Program-made: the position numbers and the translations under genes
The notes under the pieces: model-generated
Database searches by the model: none
What the model was told of the DNA's origin: nothing
The model's input: only the letters and a program-made list of their open reading frames with translations
From: Patescibacteria group bacterium
GTDB lineage: Bacteria > Patescibacteriota > Patescibacteriia > 2-01-FULL-39-33
Assembly (NCBI GenBank): GCA_041662745.1
Contig: JBAZRV010000004.1
Location: 30,001 to 62,000, forward strand
DNA: 32,000 bases
Direction of reading: 5' to 3'
Part shown: positions 18,120 through 32,000 of the stretch, piece by piece
How positions within the stretch are numbered: the first letter of the stretch is position 1
Layout of the letters: each line of letters starts with the position of its first letter

Positions 18120-18204
18120 AACGGATTAATTATAACATAAAATTATCAACGAAGCAAAATCAAACAAAAATAAAAGCCAGCCTAACGCTGACGTTTCATT
18201 TCAG

Positions 18205-18276
<72 letters not shown>

Positions 18277-23505: not shown

Positions 23506-23554
23506 GTGGCTAAATCAGTGATACCTCTCGGTCATTTGACTTAGCATAAGCGTG

Positions 23555-23628
23555 TTGCGGGGGGCGGATTCGAACCGCCGACCTCTTGGTTATGAGCCAA
23601 GCGAGCTGCCGGACTGCTCTACCCCGCG
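23555..23628 (-). tRNA. Initiator tRNA-fMet (CAU)
   Basis: CGCGGGG TA GAGC AGTCCGGCA GCTC G CTTGG CTCATAA CCAAG AGGTC GGCGG TTCGAAT CCGCC CCCCGCA A. The C1xA72 mismatch is typical of bacterial initiators. Only two G-C pairs, not three, close the anticodon stem. Confidence 0.85.
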
Positions 23629-23673
23629 ATAATATTTTATTTTCCCTCTCTCCTTAAAAAGATGAGACTGGTG

Positions 23674-23755
23674 TGCCCGAGGAGAGACTCGAACTCTCAC
23701 ATATTGCTATACACGATTTTGAGTCGTGCGCGTCTACCAGTTCCGCCACTCGGGC
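23674..23755 (-). tRNA. tRNA-Leu (CAA), type II with a long variable arm
   Basis: GCCCGAG TG GCGGAACTGGTAGACGC G CACGA CTCAAAA TCGTG TATAGCAATATGT GAGAG TTCGAGT CTCTC CTCGGGC A. The acceptor, anticodon and T stems all pair. Confidence 0.9.
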
Positions 23756-25780: not shown

Positions 25781-27043
25781 CTATTTGATTAGGCGTCGCA
25801 GTTTATCGGCATTCAAACCCGGTCCGATCAGGGCCAAATTGGCCCGATTAAAATCAAAAATATCCTTAGCCGTCTGTTGCACTTCCTTGGCTGATACCGC
25901 GAAAATCTTTTTTAATTTCTGTTCCGGCGTCATCAACGGTTTATTCATCAGTTCTTGATTGACGTAAAACTGGGCAATAGACATGGAATCTTCCAAATCC
26001 AAAGCGGTTTTGCCGGCAATGAATTCTTTGGCCCGATTCAGTTCCTCGGCGGTCACGCCGCCAGCCAAAATATTTTTGATTTCCAAAATTATCGTTTCTA
26101 AGGCCAACTCCAGTCGCGCCTTATCCAAGCCCGCCTGAATCACCAAAGATCCGGCATCCTCATACAAATTAGGCCAAGAACGGATAAAATAGGCCAGGCC
26201 TTTTTGTTCCCGTATATTGATAGACAAACGCGAACTCATGTTGCCTCCCAAAATAATCGCCAAAAGATTCAAAGCATAAACGCGCTTGTCATAAGTGGGA
26301 AAAGCGTTAAAACCCAAAGCCAACTGCACCTGTTCCGTTGCCTTGTTTTTGATTTTTATCCTGGGTTTCTGTTGTCTGACGACCGATCGCCTGATGGCTG
26401 ATTTCTTGCCCTTGGGCAAAGAAAACTTAGCCGAGATATCCTTGATCTGCTTGTCGCTGAATTTTCCGGCCAAGCCGATAACGACATTGGCGCCGTTATA
26501 ATAATTACGCTTGTAAGCCAGGAGTTTCTTCCTGTCCAACCCCTTGACCGTTTCCTTGCTGCCGGCGATCATGTGGCCCAATTGTCCGCCATCAAACATC
26601 AGTTCCTCCAGCATTTCTTCCACATGCATCAAGGGATTGTCTTCATACATATTGATCTCTTCTGTAATCACGCCCTTTTCCTTTTCCAGCTCAACAGCAT
26701 CAAATTTAGAGTTAATAACCATGTCCGACAGCATGTCAATCGCCAGCGGCAAATGCCGAGCATCGGATTTGATATAATAGCCGGTCATATCCTTGCCGGT
26801 AAAAGCGTTGTATTCCGCGCCGATGCCGTCTAACTCTTTGGCTAAATCCAAGGTTGTCGGGCGTTTGTTCGTGCCCTTGAACATCATATGCTCAATAAAA
26901 TGGGAACTGCCGTAAATTGACGGCGATTCCTGACGGCTACCCACCTTGAACAGGACCAATAAGCTGGCGGTCTGCGTATCATGAAGCGGAGCCGTAATCA
27001 ACCTAATGCCGTTTTTTAAGGTTTGTTTTTTATACATAATCAT
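25781..27043 (-). CDS. M16-family (pitrilysin-like) zinc peptidase
   Basis: The inverted zinc motif HFIEH, within SSHFIEHMMFKGT, plus a downstream E in the EKGVITEEI region. 420 aa. Confidence 0.88.
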   Translation of the reverse strand: MIMYKKQTLKNGIRLITAPLHDTQTASLLVLFKVGSRQESPSIYGSSHFIEHMMFKGTNKRPTTLDLAKELDGIGAEYNAFTGKDMTGYYIKSDARHLPLAIDMLSDMVINSKFDAVELEKEKGVITEEINMYEDNPLMHVEEMLEELMFDGGQLGHMIAGSKETVKGLDRKKLLAYKRNYYNGANVVIGLAGKFSDKQIKDISAKFSLPKGKKSAIRRSVVRQQKPRIKIKNKATEQVQLALGFNAFPTYDKRVYALNLLAIILGGNMSSRLSINIREQKGLAYFIRSWPNLYEDAGSLVIQAGLDKARLELALETIILEIKNILAGGVTAEELNRAKEFIAGKTALDLEDSMSIAQFYVNQELMNKPLMTPEQKLKKIFAVSAKEVQQTAKDIFDFNRANLALIGPGLNADKLRRLIK

Positions 27044-27092
27044 TATTTTTGTTAAATTTACAGGGCATTTTAATACTTTCGCTATTTTCCTA

Positions 27093-27120
27093 TTGACAAA
27101 TAATACGGATATGCTATAAT
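27093..27120 (+). promoter_or_regulatory. Consensus sigma70 promoter pointing away from any annotated plus-strand gene
   Basis: Perfect TTGACA (27093-27098), a 16-nt spacer, and perfect TATAAT (27115-27120). Confidence 0.55.
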
Positions 27121-27126
27121 TACGAT

Positions 27127-27180
27127 AGAATCACGACGAGAAAGGTTCTCTAAGGGTTTCGTCCCGACGAGAGCCTTTTT
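27127..27180 (+). ncRNA. Candidate ~55-nt small RNA (consensus promoter to intrinsic terminator)
   Basis: The predicted TSS is about 27127. A two-tier hairpin follows: outer stem aaaggttctc (27141-27150) pairs with gagagccttt (27169-27178), and inner stem ggg (27154-27156) pairs with ccc (27163-27165). A T5 run ends at 27180. There is no ORF and I recognise no family. Confidence 0.35.
27141..27180. terminator. Bidirectional hairpin terminator (NYN gene on the minus strand, candidate sRNA on the plus strand)
   Basis: This is the same hairpin as in the sRNA candidate. On the minus strand it is followed by tttctcgtc, and on the plus strand by ttttt. Confidence 0.6.
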
Positions 27181-27716
27181 CATTTGTGTTTATTTTTATA
27201 CTCCAACTTACCTTTCAAAACATTCAAAAAAATCAAGATATTATTTGCCGGAGAACTTAAGCGATCCAAAAGACAAGAATAATTATTTTGATTCGGAATT
27301 AACACTCTCTTGAGTTTTGCGTTATTGATCAGATATTCTACCAAACAATAAAAATCACCATCACCGGAGACAATAATGGCCTTGTCATAATTAGAGTGTT
27401 CAATCATAGTATGCAATACCAATTCGGCATCTACATTACCCTTAACCGTACCATCGGCTAATTCCAGCGTCGGTTTAAACACGCAAATATAGCCATACTC
27501 CTGTAATTTTGTATACATCGCTTGATTGCCGGGTTTAAAGCCAATGAACAGGAAGGCCTTTTCAATGCCATATTTATCCTTAAGATAAACCCTGAATCTT
27601 CTATAATCAAGTTGCCAGCCGGAATAAATTTTCCGGTCTTTTTTATAAATGTCTTTTGACAAGCTTTGATATAAATTATTGCTGTCAATAAAAGCGTAAT
27701 TTTTTTCTTGCGGCAT
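27180..27716 (-). CDS. NYN/LabA-like (PIN-related) putative ribonuclease, 20 nt downstream of the DGR RT
   Basis: AFIDSNNLYQS at the N-terminus, with GNVDAELV and IIVSGDGDFYCLVEYL, fits the NYN (DUF88/LabA) acidic-residue pattern. Confidence 0.7.
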   Translation of the reverse strand: MPQEKNYAFIDSNNLYQSLSKDIYKKDRKIYSGWQLDYRRFRVYLKDKYGIEKAFLFIGFKPGNQAMYTKLQEYGYICVFKPTLELADGTVKGNVDAELVLHTMIEHSNYDKAIIVSGDGDFYCLVEYLINNAKLKRVLIPNQNNYSCLLDRLSSPANNILIFLNVLKGKLEYKNKHK

Positions 27717-27736
27717 ATTATTTTATATAGATAATC

Positions 27737-28795
27737 TTAGCAAGTATAAGCCAAATTAGCAATTTTTCGTTGTAACTTATAGCTCTGGCCGTGACTCAAT
27801 AAACCCAAATATGAATTTATGGTCTCCAAACTATGGTTTCCTCTCACTCGCCTGAACATTCTTCTTTTACTCGTCGTCCGAAACACCCGATGGTCAAAAA
27901 AAGTCACCCAGCCAAGAAAGTCCAAACCGGAGTTCAGGGTTTTAATGAATAACTTATCAGGATGAAGCATCAGCTTCATTTTATCTCTCAAATATTCATC
28001 AATTATTGGAATAATATTTTCCAAATATTCTTTATCGTCAGCCATAATCACGAAATCATCGGCATAACGGATATAATGCTTGACTTGCAATTTATGTTTG
28101 ACGAATTGATCAAACTTGTTCATGTAAATATTAACCAAGAGTTGTGAGGTCAGATTGCCTAATGGCAGACCCCTACCACCGCCATTATTCCCACTCTCCC
28201 TCTTGTCATTCCCGCGGAGACGGGAATCCAGGTTATCTTCAATATTATCAAAACTGTCAATTACTTCATCCAATAATCCTAAAATACTTTTATCCGGGAT
28301 ATACTCGGCCAGAATCTCTTTCAATATCCTATGGTCAATATTGGCAAAAAATTTCCTGATGTCACCCTTCAAAATCCAGCAAGTGCGGGTATTATTTTTG
28401 CTGGCGGCATAAGCGAATTCCCTGAACCGAGCCAGGGCCTTGTGCGTGCCCTTGCCCAGTCGGCAAGAATAGGAATCGGCAATGAAAGTCCGATCAAAAA
28501 ACGGATACAAAATCCGATAAATCGCATGGTGAACCAATCTATCGCGGACAGACGCCTTATGAATTTGCCGCGGTTTGGGATCGCAGATCTTAAAGGCCTG
28601 GTAGCCGCCGTGGCGATAAACACCGGTTGCCAAATACCGATGCAATGCGATAAGATTATCCATGAGGCGCAATTGGAATTCCTGCGCGTCTTTTCTGCCC
28701 CTTTTGCCCCTGACAAATTCCTGCCAAGCCAATAATAAATTATCAAGACAAATAATATCTTCAAAAGTATGGCTCAATTTGATTTTCCCGTTCAT
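27737..28795 (-). CDS. DGR-type reverse transcriptase
   Basis: The motifs are LLLAWQEFVRGKRGRKD, GLPLGNLTSQLLVNIYMNKFD (the DGR-typical LGNxxSQ) and YIRYADDFVI (YADD). The start is set at MNGKIKLSHTFEDI (ATG 28795-28793) because AAAGGA lies 6 nt upstream. The track ORF starts at 28846 and would read the G10 run as GGG. Confidence 0.88.
   Translation of the reverse strand: MNGKIKLSHTFEDIICLDNLLLAWQEFVRGKRGRKDAQEFQLRLMDNLIALHRYLATGVYRHGGYQAFKICDPKPRQIHKASVRDRLVHHAIYRILYPFFDRTFIADSYSCRLGKGTHKALARFREFAYAASKNNTRTCWILKGDIRKFFANIDHRILKEILAEYIPDKSILGLLDEVIDSFDNIEDNLDSRLRGNDKRESGNNGGGRGLPLGNLTSQLLVNIYMNKFDQFVKHKLQVKHYIRYADDFVIMADDKEYLENIIPIIDEYLRDKMKLMLHPDKLFIKTLNSGLDFLGWVTFFDHRVFRTTSKRRMFRRVRGNHSLETINSYLGLLSHGQSYKLQRKIANLAYTC
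28203..28234. repeat. Palindromic repeat unit embedded in-frame in the RT gene
   Basis: ttgtcattcccgcg gaga cgggaatccaggtt. Arms attcccg (28208-28214) and cgggaat (28221-28227) are complementary. The unit is translated on the minus strand as NLDSRLRGNDK. Both 14-nt ends are identical to those of the copy at 16986-17038. Confidence 0.8.
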
Positions 28796-29183
28796 AATAA
28801 TTCCTTTAATTACCCCCCCCCCGACGGAAGATTTATCAATCATCAAAAAACTCGTTGAGACCTTTAAGCTCTGGCACGGCTATGTAAAGCATTTCCCCAA
28901 AACCTCCCGCTATTCGTTGGGCGGAAAAATAGACGGCCTGTTTTCTGATCTGATTGAATCGGCATACACCGCCGGCTATCTGCCCCAAACGGAAAAACTG
29001 CCGTTCATAGAAAAATCCATCGACAAACTGAATTTGCTTAATTTTTTTATGCAAATCGCCTGGGAGCTGAAGGCGTTTGACAACAACAAATACAAAAATA
29101 TTTCCTTATTGCTTAATGAAATCGGCCGAATGCTGGGCGGCTGGCGCAAACGGATAAAAAAAGAAACTTCCGCCCCAAAATAA
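28779..29183 (+). CDS. avd: Avd-like four-helix-bundle protein (23S rRNA IVS protein family); start codon uncertain
   Basis: KKLVETFKLWHGYVKHFPKTSRYSLGGKIDGLFSDLIESAYTA...LNLLNFFMQIAWELKAF...LLLNEIGRMLGGW is the helical-bundle pattern of Avd/IVS proteins. There is no in-frame ATG, GTG or TTG between 28782 and about 28915. TTG 28779 is the nearest canonical start. The homologous core begins around 28836. The gene lies on the strand opposite to the RT, TR and target. Confidence 0.65.
   Translation: MIFPFIIIPLITPPPTEDLSIIKKLVETFKLWHGYVKHFPKTSRYSLGGKIDGLFSDLIESAYTAGYLPQTEKLPFIEKSIDKLNLLNFFMQIAWELKAFDNNKYKNISLLLNEIGRMLGGWRKRIKKETSAPK
28813..28822. repeat. C10/G10 homopolymer in the divergent RT/Avd start region
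   Basis: Ten consecutive C on the plus strand (tacccccccccccgacgg). Confidence 0.95.
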
Positions 29184-29194
29184 CCGGGCGGAAG
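29167..29194 (-). terminator. Strong hairpin with a U-tract immediately 3' of the TR (minus sense); also spans the avd stop codon
   Basis: A 9-bp GC-rich stem: cttccgccc (29167-29175) pairs with gggcggaag (29186-29194) around a 10-nt loop. On the minus strand it is followed by tttctttttttatcc. There is no T-run on the plus strand. Confidence 0.65.
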
Positions 29195-29203
29195 AATGGA
29201 GAG

Positions 29204-29337
29204 ATTTGCGGAAACAAACGCGAAACGGTTGTCGCTATTGTAGAAATTGTCAGGCCTGCCATTGTTGGCATTAAGCCACGGCTCATCGTCATTACGTTTG
29301 ACGTTGAACACATTCGGGTTGCCGTCCGAGTCGGTTA
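29204..29337 (-). repeat. DGR template repeat (TR)
   Basis: 134 bp, non-coding-looking. It matches 29666-29799 without gaps, and all 26 mismatches fall on TR adenines (minus strand). In the equivalent frame it is rich in AAC/AAT codons (EPWLNANNGRPDNFYNSDNRFAFVSAN). Confidence 0.92.
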
Positions 29338-29656
29338 AATGTCCAAAACGCCGCCAAAACCACCGCCCCTTGATCCGCCGGCTGACGGACTCTCGGGACT
29401 GAATCTTATCCGTGAGCTAAACTCACTTAGCGCCTTAGACCAAGTATCTTCATTTTTAGCAATTATAATTGATACTGGCAAAAGGCGTGCCCGTTGCCAC
29501 TCCGCAAATTATAATTGCAGAATTCGATCATCCGAAGCCGTAACCGCAGATATGTCAATCTACTATCCTAAATATATTTTAACAAACAAAAATAAAAATA
29601 AAAAGGAATTAAGGGTTTAAGGATTAAAGAATAACAATACTTAAGATTTTAAGGAT

Positions 29657-31552
29657 TTAAGTGTTACTTGCGGAAACAAACGCGAAACGGCTGACGCCAT
29701 AGTAGAAACGGCCAGGCCCGCCACAGTAGGCACCAAGCCACGGCTCACCGCCACTACGCTCGACGTCGAACACACTCGGGTCGCCGCCCGAGCCGGAAAT
29801 TGGTTCCATACCGATTAAAATCCATTCGCCCAGCGGTTGGTCAGTATATTGTAAACGAAGCTGGGGGCCGGTTTCCGGCGGGCAGAATTCTAAGCCGAGT
29901 TTCTTGGCTTGTTCGTAAATATCCTTGAGCTTGGCGCCGCCTTTGAAACCCAAATCCGCAACAGCCAAGATAATTAACTTTTCTTTGGTTTCTTTTTTGG
30001 CCACGGCAAATTCCGGCTTGCCCATTATGTCTTTGGCCCAATCACTGGTCTGCCCGCCTTTTTTCTCTATGGCTTTAATGAAATCATCTTTGGTTTTTAG
30101 TCCGGTGCCCAGTTCAATGGTTTTCTGTTTGATTCGGCCCTCGGGGAATTCAGTGTAAATATGTTCCAGGTTTGAGGGCAATAGTTTGAAGATGTTGAGG
30201 AATAATTCGCCGACATAGACCTTAATGTCTTTTTCTTGTTTAAGCGCTTGCTCTAATTCCTGTTTGTTGTGGATAATCTGGCTCGGTTTGCAGTCAAAAA
30301 TTACGAGCATGTCGGCATTCTTGTCCCGTTGACCCCGCAGTTCTTTGATGCGCGGATCTTTCTGGTAGCCAAAGCCCTCAATCGGCGAATTTATTTCGTA
30401 AAGGAAGATGAGATCTTCTTTGTCTAATGACTTACCTTGCCGGATTTTCTTATCCAGAGCGGTTAAGCGGCTCATGTCCTGCGATTTCTTCTCGTAGCTC
30501 TCATGTCCGGGCAGAGTTCTGGCTTTATCTTGGGCGATATCCACTAAAGCCGGTTCAAGATTTTGTTCCGCATTAATACCCCCAATTTCAGCTATTTGAT
30601 CATTCTGCATTCTGATGGCGATGCGGGGAATCTTAGGTTGGCCTTGATCATTATTGCTGTAATACACATAAAAATCGCCTTCTTTTAATTGCGCCTGGGC
30701 CGTGCTTTCTCCGGCCGTGCACCAGCCCGTGCCGTGGCCTTGGAGTGACTGGCATAGTTTTTGGTAGTCGTCGCCTTGATCGTATTTGACCCATTGGCCC
30801 TGGATATTTTCCTTTTGCTCTTGGCTGGCGGGGGTAACTTTTTCAATGGCATAGGCGTAAAGCTTGGCGAAATTGGCGCCTTCCAGTATTTTGCCCAGTT
30901 CTGCATTGATTGGCGAAGACGCGTTATCCACACCATGCCGTTTATTGACAATATCCAAAACCAAAGCCAAGGCCTCGCGGTTAAGATCGGGAAAAACGCC
31001 CCGAGTGAATTGGCTGCGTTTTTTGAATTCGTGCTTCTGCTTATCAAATTCAGCCAGGCCAGTCACGGAACGAAGGGCAAAATACTTGAGCCAAGTCGGA
31101 TACATGGCATCTTCCGACGACAGGTAATCAAACCAGTTGCTTAAGCCGGCCTCCTGGTCTTTGACCGCGGATTCCAAAATCTGCTCCTGCATTTCCCGGG
31201 TTACTTCAATATCGCCATGGCCTTGTTCGCGGGCGACGCGCTTGTCCAAATCAAAAAAATTACCCGGTAAATCGTCAATGGTTTTATGGCGCAAGGGAAT
31301 GGCCGAATCTAGGATTTTATTCTTAAGGTAATCCAACCTGAATTCCCTAAGATTTTGGCCCTTGAGATATTCCTCTTCCGGCGTAGAAAAAATTTCCTCC
31401 AAACGATCCAGGTAAGTGCCAAGTCGGCCTTCCGGAGTATTAGCGACTTTTTCGCCGACACGGATTTTTTTGCGCGCTGAAGCAGACGCCACTTCTGGAG
31501 TTTTTTGCAGATCTTCAAATTTATTATGGAGAAAACGTTCTGGGGAGGGCAT
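29657..31552 (-). CDS. DGR target (variable) protein, 631 aa, with the VR at its C-terminus and no obvious signal peptide
   Basis: A long ORF whose last 44 codons are the VR. The N-terminus MPSPERFLHNKFEDLQKTPEV is hydrophilic. I recognise no family in the first ~580 aa. Confidence 0.85.
   Translation of the reverse strand: MPSPERFLHNKFEDLQKTPEVASASARKKIRVGEKVANTPEGRLGTYLDRLEEIFSTPEEEYLKGQNLREFRLDYLKNKILDSAIPLRHKTIDDLPGNFFDLDKRVAREQGHGDIEVTREMQEQILESAVKDQEAGLSNWFDYLSSEDAMYPTWLKYFALRSVTGLAEFDKQKHEFKKRSQFTRGVFPDLNREALALVLDIVNKRHGVDNASSPINAELGKILEGANFAKLYAYAIEKVTPASQEQKENIQGQWVKYDQGDDYQKLCQSLQGHGTGWCTAGESTAQAQLKEGDFYVYYSNNDQGQPKIPRIAIRMQNDQIAEIGGINAEQNLEPALVDIAQDKARTLPGHESYEKKSQDMSRLTALDKKIRQGKSLDKEDLIFLYEINSPIEGFGYQKDPRIKELRGQRDKNADMLVIFDCKPSQIIHNKQELEQALKQEKDIKVYVGELFLNIFKLLPSNLEHIYTEFPEGRIKQKTIELGTGLKTKDDFIKAIEKKGGQTSDWAKDIMGKPEFAVAKKETKEKLIILAVADLGFKGGAKLKDIYEQAKKLGLEFCPPETGPQLRLQYTDQPLGEWILIGMEPISGSGGDPSVFDVERSGGEPWLGAYCGGPGRFYYGVSRFAFVSASNT
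29666..29799 (-). repeat. DGR variable repeat (VR), forming the C-terminal 44 codons of the target gene
   Basis: See the TR entry. It encodes SGSGGDPSVFDVERSGGEPWLGAYCGGPGRFYYGVSRFAFVSAS and ends two codons before the stop. Confidence 0.92.
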
Positions 31553-31558
31553 ACGGAT

Positions 31559-32000
31559 TTAACTAATTTTCTCTTTAACCCACTCCTTCAACTCCTCTAC
31601 TTTAATAAGTTCTTGCTTCATGGTGTCGCGGTTACGGACAGTAACAGTACCTTTTTCCAAAGTGTCAAAATCAACCGTAATGCAGTAAGGCGTGCCGATT
31701 TCATCCTGCCGGCGATAGCGTTTGCCCACATTGCCGTTATCGTCAAACTCGCATTTGAATTCGCTTTTCAGGCTAGCAAAAATCTCCCGCGCCTTGGCCA
31801 CCAATTCCGACTTATTCTTAAGCAAGGGAAAAATCGCCACCTTAACCGGCGCGATCCTGGCCGGAAACTTCAACACCACGCGGACATCATCGCCTTCAAG
31901 TTTTTCTTCGGTATAAGCGGCAGAGAGAGCTACGAGCACTGAGCGATCCAAACCGAAAGTCGGTTCCAAAACATGAGGCAAATATTTCCGGCCGGCCTGC
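31559..32000 (-). CDS. glyQS: Glycine--tRNA ligase (class II, alpha2 type), C-terminal anticodon-binding part; the gene continues beyond the window
   Basis: HVLEPTFGLDR...APVKVAIFPL...GKRYRRQDEIGTPYCITVDFDTLEKGTVTVRNRDTMKQ is the conserved GlyRS C-terminus. The frame stays open from 31981 to 32000, so the TTG start in the track ORF is internal. Confidence 0.9.
   Translation of the reverse strand, partial: QAGRKYLPHVLEPTFGLDRSVLVALSAAYTEEKLEGDDVRVVLKFPARIAPVKVAIFPLLKNKSELVAKAREIFASLKSEFKCEFDDNGNVGKRYRRQDEIGTPYCITVDFDTLEKGTVTVRNRDTMKQELIKVEELKEWVKEKIS

What the first reader, a model, noticed from the sequence alone, without database searches (positions are those of the whole stretch)
27737..31552. 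Complete diversity-generating retroelement: 134-bp TR/VR pair with adenine-only mismatches
Seen directly: 29204-29337 (TR) and 29666-29799 (VR) align without gaps at a constant offset of 462. By hand count there are 26 mismatches. Every one sits where the TR has T on the plus strand, which is A on the coding minus strand. None of the ~96 non-A positions differs. 26 of the 38 TR adenines are changed, to G, C or T.

The VR is the last 44 codons of a 631-aa ORF. TR AAC/AAT codons correspond to D, S, G, Y, C and R in the VR, giving about 22 amino-acid differences. The final ~23 nt in coding sense (CCGTTTCGCGTTTGTTTCCGCAA) are identical, which is IMH-like. An RT with LGNLTSQ and YADD motifs and an Avd-like bundle protein lie next to the TR.

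Established knowledge: adenine-specific TR-to-VR substitution is the defining DGR signature (Bordetella phage BPP-1 paradigm), and DGRs are common in CPR genomes. The element itself is a confident call. Its architecture is what looks unusual, and separate findings cover that.
Basis: partly seen in the sequence, partly recalled or inferred. Interest (0 to 1): 0.8.

Follow-up and report, generated by a model that had tools for sequence, protein, structure and literature searches.

The report
Typical CPR diversity-generating retroelement
This is a genuine, complete diversity-generating retroelement of the kind already known to be standard in Patescibacteria (CPR) bacteria, so the element is ordinary, but comparing 67 relatives showed a conserved structured RNA around its template that appears to be undescribed.

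Summary
TR 29204-29337 and VR 29666-29799 align without gaps. All 26 mismatches sit at TR adenines on the minus strand, and none of the 96 non-A positions differs (P = 7e-19). RT, Avd, TR, VR and the target gene are all present and intact.

The layout that looked unusual is VR, then a 328-nt spacer, then TR, then inverted avd, then RT. This is published architecture B3, which makes up 90% of CPR DGRs in Wu et al. 2018. All 67 related loci with enough upstream sequence share it. The element is therefore a new member of a known kind.

The target belongs to a large unannotated Patescibacteria family. Its VR domain resembles C-type lectins only weakly.

Current activity is not shown. Three other assemblies carry a VR that is 100% identical.

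Three features came out of the comparison:
- The spacer holds a conserved extended -10 promoter and a structured RNA of about 230 nt just 5' of the TR. 41 of its 45 base pairs covary, and it has no Rfam match.
- A covarying long-range helix joins that RNA to a box just 3' of the TR, followed by a hairpin and a U-run. I infer, without a direct test, that this is a circular permutation of the Bordetella phage DGR RNA.
- A conserved G:C homopolymer at the avd/RT junction remains unexplained.

The parts
29657..31552 (-). Target gene (631 aa), a member of a large unannotated Patescibacteria family
   Evidence: ORF. At least 2697 homologues at 45-71% identity over the full length. No Pfam, NCBIfam, PADLOC, PHROG or PDB sequence match. 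AF2 model with mean pLDDT 89.
29666..29799 (-). Variable repeat (VR), codons 585-629 of the target
   Evidence: 26 A-specific differences from the TR. Across the family, variability is concentrated at the A-templated codons.
29605..29661 (-). About seven tandem 8-nt units (CTTAAANC) directly after the target stop codon; function unknown
   Evidence: The same 7-8-nt periodicity follows the VR in the related loci.
29576..29584 (-). Putative extended -10 promoter (TGTTAAAAT) of the TR RNA
   Evidence: TGnTAnAAT sits at a fixed distance of about 28 nt before the first helix in most loci. It lies after the target-gene terminator and is followed by conserved GGTAGTAGG. Inferred; transcription was not measured.
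29338..29568 (-). Conserved structured RNA domain 5' of the TR. Helices: P1 29551-29530; P2/P3 29511-29466; P4 29440-29429 paired with 29352-29341; P5 29426-29412; conserved single strand 29411-29398; P6 29399-29365
   Evidence: RNAalifold gives 45 pairs, 41 with compensatory changes. 94.6% of cells are paired, against 71% in shuffles and 39-51% in slid controls, with 0 of 500 shuffles reaching the observed values. The single-sequence fold reproduces P4, P5 and P6 (z = -3.5). No Rfam match.
29441..29457 (-). Strand a (AAAAAUGAAGAUACUUG), the 5' half of the long-range helix; it abuts P4
   Evidence: Complementary to the post-TR box. Cognate pairs beat non-cognate pairs in 5000 of 5000 permutations.
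29204..29337 (-). Template repeat (TR), non-coding, 38 adenines
29194..29203 (-). Post-TR box a' (CUCUCCAUUC), the 3' half of the long-range helix
   Evidence: The consensus box in relatives is GCAACUCUYUUCAUUUC.
29152..29194 (-). 9-bp hairpin (CUUCCGCCC/GGGCGGAAG) followed by a U-run. It looks like an intrinsic terminator and sits where the BPP-1 Avd-binding stem-loop sits. It overlaps the avd stop codon on the other strand.
   Evidence: 67 of 68 loci have a stem of at least 6 bp here, 59 have a T-run after it, and there are 58 distinct arm sequences. Compared with Handa et al..
28779..29183 (+). avd, on the strand opposite to everything else. The conserved domain starts near 28830. TTG 28779 is the only in-frame start.
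   Evidence: Pfam bAvd 2e-12, NCBIfam DivGenRetAVD 5e-19, PHROG 3206. Gene callers give 134 aa.
28813..28822 (.). C10/G10 homopolymer at the divergent avd/RT junction
   Evidence: 62 of 75 related loci have a run of 8-14 at this position. These account for 62 of all 68 such runs in 836 kb of loci. Function unresolved.
27737..28795 (-). DGR reverse transcriptase (352 aa from ATG 28795; the ORF is open up to 28846)
28205..28229 (-). 25-nt palindrome (GGATTCCCGTCTCCGCGGGAATGAC) inside an in-frame insert of about 20-24 aa in an RT surface loop
   Evidence: The alignment to bRT splits here. The loop between DSF and GLPLGNLTSQ carries inserts of 0 to about 44 aa in relatives. The palindrome occurs once in the window.

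Best explanation
This is a chromosomal, structurally complete diversity-generating retroelement. It belongs to the Patescibacteria-specific lineage (architecture B3 of Wu 2018; it probably corresponds to DGR clade 2 of Roux 2021).

Shown directly. A non-coding 134-nt template repeat differs from the last 45 codons of a 631-aa gene only at template adenines. A DGR-type RT and an Avd lie next to it.

Follows from established DGR biology. The TR is transcribed and the RT-Avd complex copies it into cDNA, misincorporating opposite adenines. The cDNA then replaces the VR. This recodes about 23 surface positions of the target's C-terminal domain.

Inferred from comparing 68 loci. The TR RNA is its own transcription unit of about 417 nt. 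It starts at an extended -10 promoter in the VR-TR spacer and ends at a hairpin plus U-run just after the TR. That is why avd can sit inverted between TR and RT. The RNA has a covarying structured domain 5' of the TR. A 12-bp helix (P4) ends 3 nt before the TR. A long-range helix joins the strand just upstream of P4 to the box just downstream of the TR, so both TR ends meet at one junction.

Inferred by analogy only. The cyclic order of elements equals that of the Bordetella phage DGR RNA: primer strand, stop-duplex strand, small stem-loop, single strand of about 13 nt, longer stem-loop, stop-duplex partner, TR, Avd-binding stem-loop. On this reading the RNA is a circular permutation of the phage RNA, with the 'spacer' functions moved to the 5' side of the TR.
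For: The A-only TR/VR pattern has P = 7e-19. All 21 changed codons are nonsynonymous, and 35 of 38 A's are at codon positions 1 or 2.

The RT is closest to bRT 8ub7 (1.9e-38) and has the LGNLTSQ and YADD motifs. Avd matches three independent Avd models.

All 67 related loci, almost all labelled as CPR/Patescibacteria MAGs (a few carry other labels), show the same order, spacing and A-specific mismatches. Architecture B3 is published as the CPR norm. A Patescibacteria-restricted clade with domain-less targets is published.

Family-wide entropy is 2.59 bits at A-templated codons against 1.34 bits elsewhere, p = 6e-5.

RNA: 41 of 45 pairs covary and both controls are passed. The long-range helix passes a permutation test with 0 of 5000. 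The post-TR hairpin is present in 67 of 68 loci with 58 distinct arm sequences. The extended -10 box sits at a fixed distance. The BPP-1 element order and the requirement for an upstream/downstream duplex and a post-TR stem-loop come from Handa et al..
Against: Current activity is not shown. The identical target protein and 100% identical DNA, VR included, occur in three other assemblies from at least two sequencing runs. Unitig-style Logan contigs also run through the VR without breaking. The 90% cluster of the target has one member. A metagenome scan for A-degenerate VR variants found nothing.

No GC-rich hairpin follows the VR, unlike BPP-1. The C-type lectin fold of the VR domain is only weakly supported, with Foldseek E = 0.05-0.8 and TM 0.35-0.46.

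The Avd start codon is uncertain, and a hypermutable C10 run lies in or before its first codons. The RT carries an extra insert.

The mapping of RNA elements onto BPP-1 rests on order, length and adjacency only. Transcript ends were not measured. My TR/VR finder penalised non-A mismatches, so the 98% A-specificity across loci is partly by construction. The unbiased finder showed the same trend.
Confidence: 0.9

Rival explanations
1. The element is a complete but currently silent or rarely firing DGR, or a recently inactivated one. The 26 differences would record one past homing event, and the VR is now fixed.
For: The VR and the whole locus are 100% identical in three further assemblies. The target's 90% cluster holds no variant. 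The A-degenerate scan found no match. The RT carries an extra palindromic insert. The Avd N-terminus depends on a slippage-prone C10 run.
Against: None of the 96 non-A positions differs between TR and VR, so the last homing event is recent relative to neutral drift. The RT motifs, Avd, TR and all RNA helices are intact in the window copy. The insert lies in a loop that tolerates inserts in many relatives. The other assemblies may come from one population, and consensus assemblies hide minority variants.
Confidence: 0.3
2. The two 134-nt copies are an ordinary duplication that diverged by an adenine-biased process, such as deamination or selection, with no role for the RT.
For: A-to-G changes dominate, 19 of 26.
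Against: Seven changes are A to T or A to C, which deamination does not produce. No other base changed (P = 7e-19). The same pattern recurs next to the same RT-Avd pair in 67 independent loci. The A's are placed at codon positions 1 and 2.
Confidence: 0.01
3. The RT belongs to another retroelement class (retron, group II intron, or a defence-associated UG/DRT), and the conserved RNA 5' of the TR is that element's own ncRNA.
For: The RT gives sub-threshold hits to group II, retron and DRT models. The layout of structured RNA, then template, then closing inverted repeat resembles retron msr-msd topology.
Against: All those hits fall far below their curated cut-offs. The best structural relative is bRT by 20 orders of magnitude. 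Motif 4 is LGNLTSQ, the SQ form that I recall as DGR-typical. An Avd and a TR/VR pair are present. The PADLOC defence models score below the generic RT model.
Confidence: 0.02

Closest known systems
CPR/Patescibacteria DGRs of architecture B3, TR-(avd)-RT (Wu et al. 2018, PMC5758913); probably DGR clade 2 of Roux et al. 2021 (PMC8144416)
   Same: Gene order and strands are the same, with avd on the reverse strand between TR and RT. The host lineage is the same. The element is chromosomal and has a single target upstream. The target has no recognisable domain. The VR is C-terminal with A-specific changes.
   Different: Nothing differs at the level of the element. In the papers I could read I found no description of three features documented here for the clade: the covarying 5' RNA domain, the fixed extended -10 promoter, and the G:C homopolymer at the avd/RT junction. 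Paul et al. 2017 could not be opened.
Bordetella phage BPP-1 DGR (bRT, Avd, mtd; RNA architecture from Handa et al., bioRxiv 10.1101/2023.10.23.563531)
   Same: RT family, Avd, adenine mutagenesis, a 134-nt TR and a VR at the 3' end of the target are shared. Both have a stem-loop directly after the TR. Both have a duplex of about 12 bp immediately 5' of the TR. Both have a helix involving the TR 3' end that adjoins that duplex. The cyclic order of RNA elements is the same.
   Different: BPP-1 is avd-TR-Sp-RT on one strand, with the functional RNA (Sp, 140 nt) 3' of the TR. Here avd is inverted, only about 50 nt follow the TR, and the structured domain lies 5' of it. The stop-like duplex here forms from two upstream strands rather than one upstream and one downstream strand. 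No GC hairpin follows the VR here. The target is cellular, not a phage tail fibre, and is not an Mtd-type C-type lectin by sequence.
Retron msr-msd ncRNA
   Same: The topology matches: a structured non-template RNA comes first, then the template, with the two ends joined by a helix next to which priming occurs.
   Different: The RT clade differs. There is no evidence here for msDNA. An Avd and a VR target are present. The resemblance is topological only and was not tested.
C-type lectin-fold DGR variable proteins (Mtd, TvpA and others)
   Same: The VR lies in the last roughly 45 residues of a compact C-terminal alpha/beta domain. Variable residues alternate with a conserved scaffold. The only domain-sized structural neighbours are C-type lectin-like domains.
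   Different: There is no sequence match to any known CLec or FGE-type family. Foldseek scores are not significant (E at least 0.05, TM 0.35-0.46). Mtd and TvpA themselves did not appear among the top 50 hits.

Membership tests
Diversity-generating retroelement (DGR) | TR/VR repeat pair whose differences are confined to TR adenines | tested here: met
   26 of 26 mismatches are at A, 0 of 96 non-A positions differ, P = 7e-19.
Diversity-generating retroelement (DGR) | Reverse transcriptase of the DGR clade, with motif 4 [LIV]GxxxSQ and motif 5 YxDD | tested here: met
   The best PDB match is bRT 8ub7 at 1.9e-38, against about 1e-18 for group II and retron RTs. LGNLTSQ and YADD are present. PHROG 1423 hits at 1e-105. 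No formal phylogeny was run. That the SQ motif is DGR-specific is from my own knowledge.
Diversity-generating retroelement (DGR) | VR at the 3' end of a protein-coding target; TR non-coding and next to the RT | tested here: met
   The VR covers codons 585-629 of 631. The TR lies outside any supported gene, 20 nt from the avd stop codon.
Diversity-generating retroelement (DGR) | Accessory protein Avd | tested here: met
   Pfam bAvd scores 47.8 bits, above its cut-off of 40. NCBIfam DivGenRetAVD scores 68.4 bits, below its cut-off of 80. PHROG 'Avd protein of DGR' hits at 1e-19.
Diversity-generating retroelement (DGR) | IMH/IMH* at the 3' end of VR/TR, with a GC-rich inverted repeat downstream of the VR | tested here: inconclusive
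   A 23-nt A-poor identical stretch ends both repeats. No GC hairpin follows the VR in the window; 8-nt tandem units follow instead. Wu 2018 found the inverted repeat in only 34% of DGRs.
Diversity-generating retroelement (DGR) | VR displayed on a C-type lectin fold | tested here: inconclusive
Diversity-generating retroelement (DGR) | Ongoing diversification, seen as population-level VR hypervariability at A positions | tested here: inconclusive
   Three other assemblies have an identical VR. The scan for variants was empty. Read-level data were not available.
CPR DGR, architecture B3 (Wu 2018) | Order TR-(avd on the reverse strand)-RT, with the target upstream | tested here: met
   The window layout and 74 of 74 related loci with a detected Avd have avd on the opposite strand.
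CPR DGR, architecture B3 (Wu 2018) | Host in Patescibacteria/CPR | tested here: met
   An identical target protein is deposited as 'Patescibacteria group bacterium'. Nearly all of the 80 nearest RT loci are CPR MAGs.
BPP-1-type DGR RNA (Handa et al.) | Stem-loop just downstream of the TR (Avd-binding) | tested here: met
   A 9-bp stem lies at 29194-29167. 67 of 68 loci have a stem of at least 6 bp, with 58 different arm sequences. Binding to Avd was not tested.
BPP-1-type DGR RNA (Handa et al.) | Duplex between sequences upstream and downstream of the TR | tested here: met
   Strand a and box a': cognate mean -7.7 kcal/mol against -5.7 for non-cognate, with 0 of 5000 permutations reaching the observed value. 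In the window itself the helix has one mismatch and scores -4.8 kcal/mol.
BPP-1-type DGR RNA (Handa et al.) | Functional spacer (Sp) RNA located 3' of the TR, between TR and RT | tested here: not met
   Only about 50 nt (box, hairpin, U-run) follow the TR before antisense avd begins. The covarying domain lies 5' of the TR.
BPP-1-type DGR RNA (Handa et al.) | cis-priming from a 2'-OH of a specific spacer adenosine | not testable with these tools
   This needs cDNA mapping. Only a positional prediction can be made, near 29441-29445.

The most novel reading that the evidence does not exclude
The CPR (B3) DGR lineage, this locus included, uses a DGR RNA that is a circular permutation of the Bordetella phage RNA. 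In this RNA the primer strand, stop duplex, thumb-ring-like single strand and RT-binding stem-loop all lie 5' of the TR. The RNA is made as a separate transcript of about 417 nt from its own extended -10 promoter and is terminated by the Avd-binding-like hairpin. In addition, expression of Avd, and so of mutagenesis, is gated by slippage at a conserved C8-14 homopolymer at the avd/RT junction.
Probability: 0.35. Interest if true: 0.65.

Novelty: new member of a known kind. Interest (0 to 1): 0.42.

Why it matters
As a DGR call this adds one more example to tens of thousands, in the lineage where DGRs are most common, so it changes little by itself.

The value lies in what the comparison showed about the whole CPR lineage. 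First, it gives a defined RNA, supported by covariation, with a promoter, a 5' structured domain, a template-closing helix and a terminal hairpin. This gives a concrete construct for reconstituting a CPR DGR. It would also test whether the RNA logic solved for one phage element holds when the parts are rearranged.

Second, the VR-bearing domain has more than 4,000 clusters at 50% identity and no annotation. It is one of the most frequently diversified protein modules in Patescibacteria, and its ligand is unknown.

Third, if the conserved homopolymer switches Avd on and off, it would be a way for cells to control when they hypermutate.

Tried and rejected
1. Further VR copies in the window. A scan with A positions free found only the TR and the VR.

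2. Known RNA families. Rfam at E up to 1 over 27000-32000, and at gathering threshold over the whole window, gave nothing in the DGR. The RT-1 to RT-19 motifs of Weinberg 2017 are therefore not matched.

3. Annotation of the target. Pfam at E up to 10, NCBIfam, PADLOC, PHROGs, PDB by sequence and by family profile, and Pfam on 10 relatives all gave nothing consistent. My recollection that the conserved GWC...DFYVYYS region looks PcfJ-like found no support and is dropped.

5. Population variation. The metagenome scan with an A-degenerate TR pattern was empty. Exact look-ups of the 369-aa and 368-aa RT forms failed. The 352-aa form returned a single contig, which is one of the three other assemblies of this strain.

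6. NYN-domain gene after the RT as a DGR accessory. It occurs in only one other locus, on the other strand, so this is rejected.

7. The generic promoter/terminator scan missed both the extended -10 box and the post-TR hairpin, whose loop is 9 nt. Both were found by comparison instead.

8. The RT insert as evidence of inactivation. This is rejected as a firm conclusion, because the same loop carries inserts of varied length in many relatives.

9. A canonical Avd start codon. It is not resolved: only 15 of 61 loci have an in-frame start upstream of the C-run.

Full report
**Observation.**
I recomputed the alignment of 29204-29337 against 29666-29799. It is ungapped at offset 462 and has 26 mismatches. 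Every mismatch falls where the first copy has T on the plus strand, which is A on the minus strand. The TR has 38 such A's. Of these, 26 are changed: 19 to G, 6 to T and 1 to C. None of the 96 other positions differs. The chance that 26 random mismatches all land on A positions is 7e-19. Similarity stops at both ends of the interval. A scan of both strands with the A positions left free found no third copy in the window.

In the reading frame of the 631-aa ORF, the VR spans codons 585-629. Of 44 whole codons, 21 differ and all 21 change the amino acid. The TR has 4 AAC and 7 AAT codons, and 35 of its 38 A's occupy codon positions 1 or 2.

**Components.**
- The minus-strand ORF 27737-28846 hits RVT_1. 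Its best relative among solved structures is the Bordetella phage DGR enzyme bRT (8ub7, E = 1.9e-38). Group II intron and retron RTs score about 1e-18. It carries LGNLTSQ and YADD.
- All hits to retron, group II and DRT models lie far below their curated cut-offs. The RT also hits PHROG 1423 at 1e-105.
- Homologues and gene callers start the protein at ATG 28795, giving 352 aa.
- The plus-strand ORF ending at 29183 is an Avd. It hits Pfam bAvd above its cut-off, NCBIfam DivGenRetAVD at 5e-19 (below that model's cut-off), and the PHROG family 'Avd protein of DGR'.

The element is therefore complete: target with VR, TR, Avd and RT.

**Architecture.**
Avd is on the strand opposite to the target, the TR and the RT, and it sits between the TR and the RT. 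I fetched 80 loci that encode the nearest RT relatives (55-70% identity). Almost all come from MAGs labelled as CPR/Patescibacteria; a few carry other labels.

- In all 74 loci where Avd was detected, it lies on the opposite strand, head to head with the RT.
- In all 67 loci with enough upstream sequence there is a VR, a TR 380-560 nt downstream of it, and 8-55 nt between the TR and the avd stop codon in almost every locus (126 nt in one).
- Across these loci, 1199 of 1222 TR/VR mismatches are at TR adenines. My finder favoured A mismatches, so this figure is partly by construction. The unbiased finder showed the same pattern.
- Wu et al. 2018 already define this layout as architecture B3, TR-(avd)-RT. 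[quoted passage not shown]
- Roux et al. 2021 describe a DGR clade restricted to Patescibacteria whose targets lack recognisable domains.

The architecture is the lineage norm, not a peculiarity of this window.

**Target.**
The 631-aa protein has at least 2697 homologues, mostly 600-650 aa long and 45-71% identical over the full length. All that carry a name are hypothetical proteins of Patescibacteria. No Pfam, NCBIfam, PADLOC, PHROG or PDB sequence match exists, even with a family profile.

Across the family, the last 45 residues show a fixed scaffold with variable positions in between. Column entropy is 2.59 bits at positions templated by A-containing codons of this TR, against 1.34 bits at the others (p = 6e-5). 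Homologous positions are therefore diversified family-wide.

The C-terminal 162 aa form an independent module. It matches 4244 representatives of 50%-identity clusters (2365 at E up to 1e-10). Most are proteins of 160-250 aa with the module at the C-terminus. This agrees with the many related loci whose target shares only this part.

AlphaFold models are confident: pLDDT 89 for the whole protein and 94 for the domain. Foldseek finds no significant PDB or viral neighbour. The only domain-sized hits are C-type lectin-like domains (NKp65, Mincle, DCIR, Bd2740 C-terminal domain) at E = 0.05-0.8 and TM 0.35-0.46. This fits the suggestion of Roux et al. that unassigned CPR VR domains are divergent C-type lectin variants, but it does not establish it. 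The 470-aa N-terminal region remains without any lead.

**Activity.**
The zero differences at non-A positions argue that the last homing event is recent. I found no sign of ongoing diversification, however.

- The exact protein occurs in three further assemblies: ENA ERZ27249449, Logan SRR18595301 and Logan SRR6484324.
- Their DNA is 100% identical to the window over 2.9-4.4 kb, including VR, spacer and TR.
- The Logan contigs run through the VR without a break.
- The target's 90% cluster has a single member.
- An A-degenerate pattern found nothing in the JGI metagenome collection, which evidently does not hold this organism.

These samples may come from one population, and consensus assemblies hide minority alleles. 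The question stays open until reads are mapped.

**The TR RNA (comparison of 68 loci).**
The VR-TR spacer is not a passive gap.

1. *Promoter.* After the target gene's terminator, most loci carry TGnTAnAAT at a fixed 28 nt before the first helix, followed by conserved GGTAGTAGG. The window has TGTTAAAAT at 29584-29576.

2. *5' structured domain.* The following roughly 230 nt fold into a conserved structure. RNAalifold on an ordinary MAFFT alignment gives 45 pairs, 41 with compensatory double changes.
   - 94.6% of cells are paired, against 71.4% in column shuffles and 39-51% when partners are slid.
   - 745 cells carry a change on both sides, against 215 in shuffles. None of 500 shuffles reaches any observed measure.
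   - The best helix, P4, has 12 bp and is 98% paired. In the window it pairs 29440-29429 with 29352-29341, and it ends 3 nt before the TR.
   - P4 encloses a short hairpin P5, a strongly conserved single strand of about 14 nt, and a longer stem-loop P6.
   - The window's own sequence folds the same way (z = -3.5).

3. *Long-range helix.* The conserved strand directly 5' of P4 (AAAAAUGAAGAUACUUG, 29457-29441) is complementary to the conserved box directly 3' of the TR (consensus GCAACUCUYUUCAUUUC; window 29203-29194).
   - Cognate 5'/3' pairs are more stable than non-cognate ones (-7.7 against -5.7 kcal/mol). None of 5000 permutations reaches the observed mean.
   - In the 29 loci whose 5' strand departs from the consensus, the cognate partner compensates (-8.4 against -4.9 kcal/mol, 0 of 5000). 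L063 and L008 are examples.
   - In the window itself this helix has one mismatch.

4. *Terminal hairpin.* A hairpin follows the box in 67 of 68 loci. Stems are 6-12 bp, and the window's is 9 bp. There are 58 different arm sequences, and 59 loci have a T-run after it. It overlaps the avd stop codon on the other strand.

No Rfam family matches any of this.

**Interpretation of the RNA.**
Shown: conservation, covariation and fixed spacing. Inferred: the TR is transcribed as its own RNA of about 417 nt, from about 29568 to about 29152, which ends before antisense avd. That would explain why avd can be inverted.

Handa et al. showed that the BPP-1 RNA needs several elements. These are an upstream/downstream duplex next to the template:primer duplex, a small stem-loop, a 13-nt single-stranded 'thumb ring', a long RT-binding stem-loop, and an Avd-binding stem-loop just after the TR. 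They predicted the last element and the duplex in 207 of 278 DGRs, including CPR ones, using only 40 nt upstream and 100 nt downstream of the TR.

Read around a circle, the BPP-1 order is: up strand, TR, Avd stem-loop, primer strand, down strand, small stem-loop, single strand, long stem-loop. The order found here is: strand a, P4 5' strand, P5, single strand, P6, P4 3' strand, TR, box and hairpin. This is the same cycle opened at a different point.

I therefore propose that this RNA is a circular permutation of the phage RNA, with strand a as the primer strand and P4 as the stop duplex. This is an analogy from order, length and adjacency. The priming site cannot be determined with these tools. 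In the papers I could read I found no description of the 5' domain. Paul et al. 2017 could not be opened.

**Unexplained features.**
- *Homopolymer at the avd/RT junction.* A G:C run sits at the junction (window C10, 28813-28822). 62 of 75 related loci have a run of 8-14 there (mode 10), and these account for 62 of the 68 such runs in 836 kb of loci. The run ends 16-19 nt before the RT start codon and 2-9 nt before the first conserved Avd residue. It stays with avd when the RT is displaced. It reads as PPP in the Avd frame, but only 15 of 61 loci, the window among them, have an in-frame start codon upstream of it. Phase variation, transcriptional slippage and a promoter role are all possible; none was tested.
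- *Repeats after the VR.* Directly after the target stop codon there are about seven tandem 8-nt units. The same 7-8-nt periodicity follows the VR in the related loci. The position is where BPP-1 has its target-recognition hairpin.

**Verdict.**
The finding is correct, and the element is a confident, complete DGR. It is an ordinary member of the known CPR B3 lineage, so the call itself is of modest interest. Both are supported by comparison of 68-75 loci, but their functions remain inferred.

Noticed in passing
window 28813-28822 (C10 on the plus strand); same position in L001-L080: A conserved G:C homopolymer of 8-14 bp sits at the head-to-head avd/RT junction in 62 of 75 loci. It reads as PPP in Avd, and most loci lack an in-frame start codon upstream of it. 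It could be a phase-variation or slippage switch for Avd.
   Followed up: partly
window 29605-29661 (minus strand), and the 90 nt after the VR in the related loci: Tandem 7-8-nt units (CTTAAANC here; CTTGGANC, CTCAGNNC and CTTTGANC elsewhere) lie directly after the target stop codon. Autocorrelation peaks at lags 7-8 and 15-16. Function unknown.
   Followed up: partly
window 28160-28240; palindrome at 28205-28229: The RT has an in-frame insert of about 20-24 aa containing a perfect hairpin-forming palindrome (translated DSRLRGNDK), between DSF and GLPLGNLTSQ. Relatives carry unrelated inserts of up to about 44 aa at the same loop, so the loop looks like an insertion hotspot for small palindromic elements.
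   Followed up: partly
L082 and L083 (Logan contigs), both ending at window 28727: Two independent unitig-style contigs of the same strain break at exactly the same base, inside the RT coding region just upstream of the annotated avd start. This suggests a graph branch there, from strain variation or a repeat.
   Followed up: no
window 27180-27716 (minus strand): A NYN-domain (predicted RNase) gene starts 20 nt after the RT stop codon. It occurs near the RT in only one other locus (L041), so it is probably an unrelated neighbour.
   Followed up: yes
window 27139-27187 (plus strand): A weak sub-threshold Rfam hit to ctRNA_p42d (25.9 bits against a gathering score of 50, E = 0.018), lying mostly in the gap between the M16-peptidase-like gene and the NYN gene. 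It is probably chance.
   Followed up: no
window 29660-30145 (minus strand); proteins P0121-P0269: The 160-aa VR-bearing domain is a free-standing module in more than 4000 clusters at 50% identity. Most are proteins of 160-250 aa, and a few carry two copies. One full-length family member (P0067) is fused to a SpoU methylase domain.
   Followed up: partly
window 31559-32000 (minus strand); 25781-27043; 18204-18276, 23554-23755: The context is chromosomal. A glycyl-tRNA synthetase gene lies directly upstream of the target. An insulinase-like peptidase ORF (my reading of its HFIEHMMFKGT motif; not scanned) and three tRNA genes (Met, Met, Leu) lie further along. No phage genes were seen near the DGR.
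   Followed up: partly
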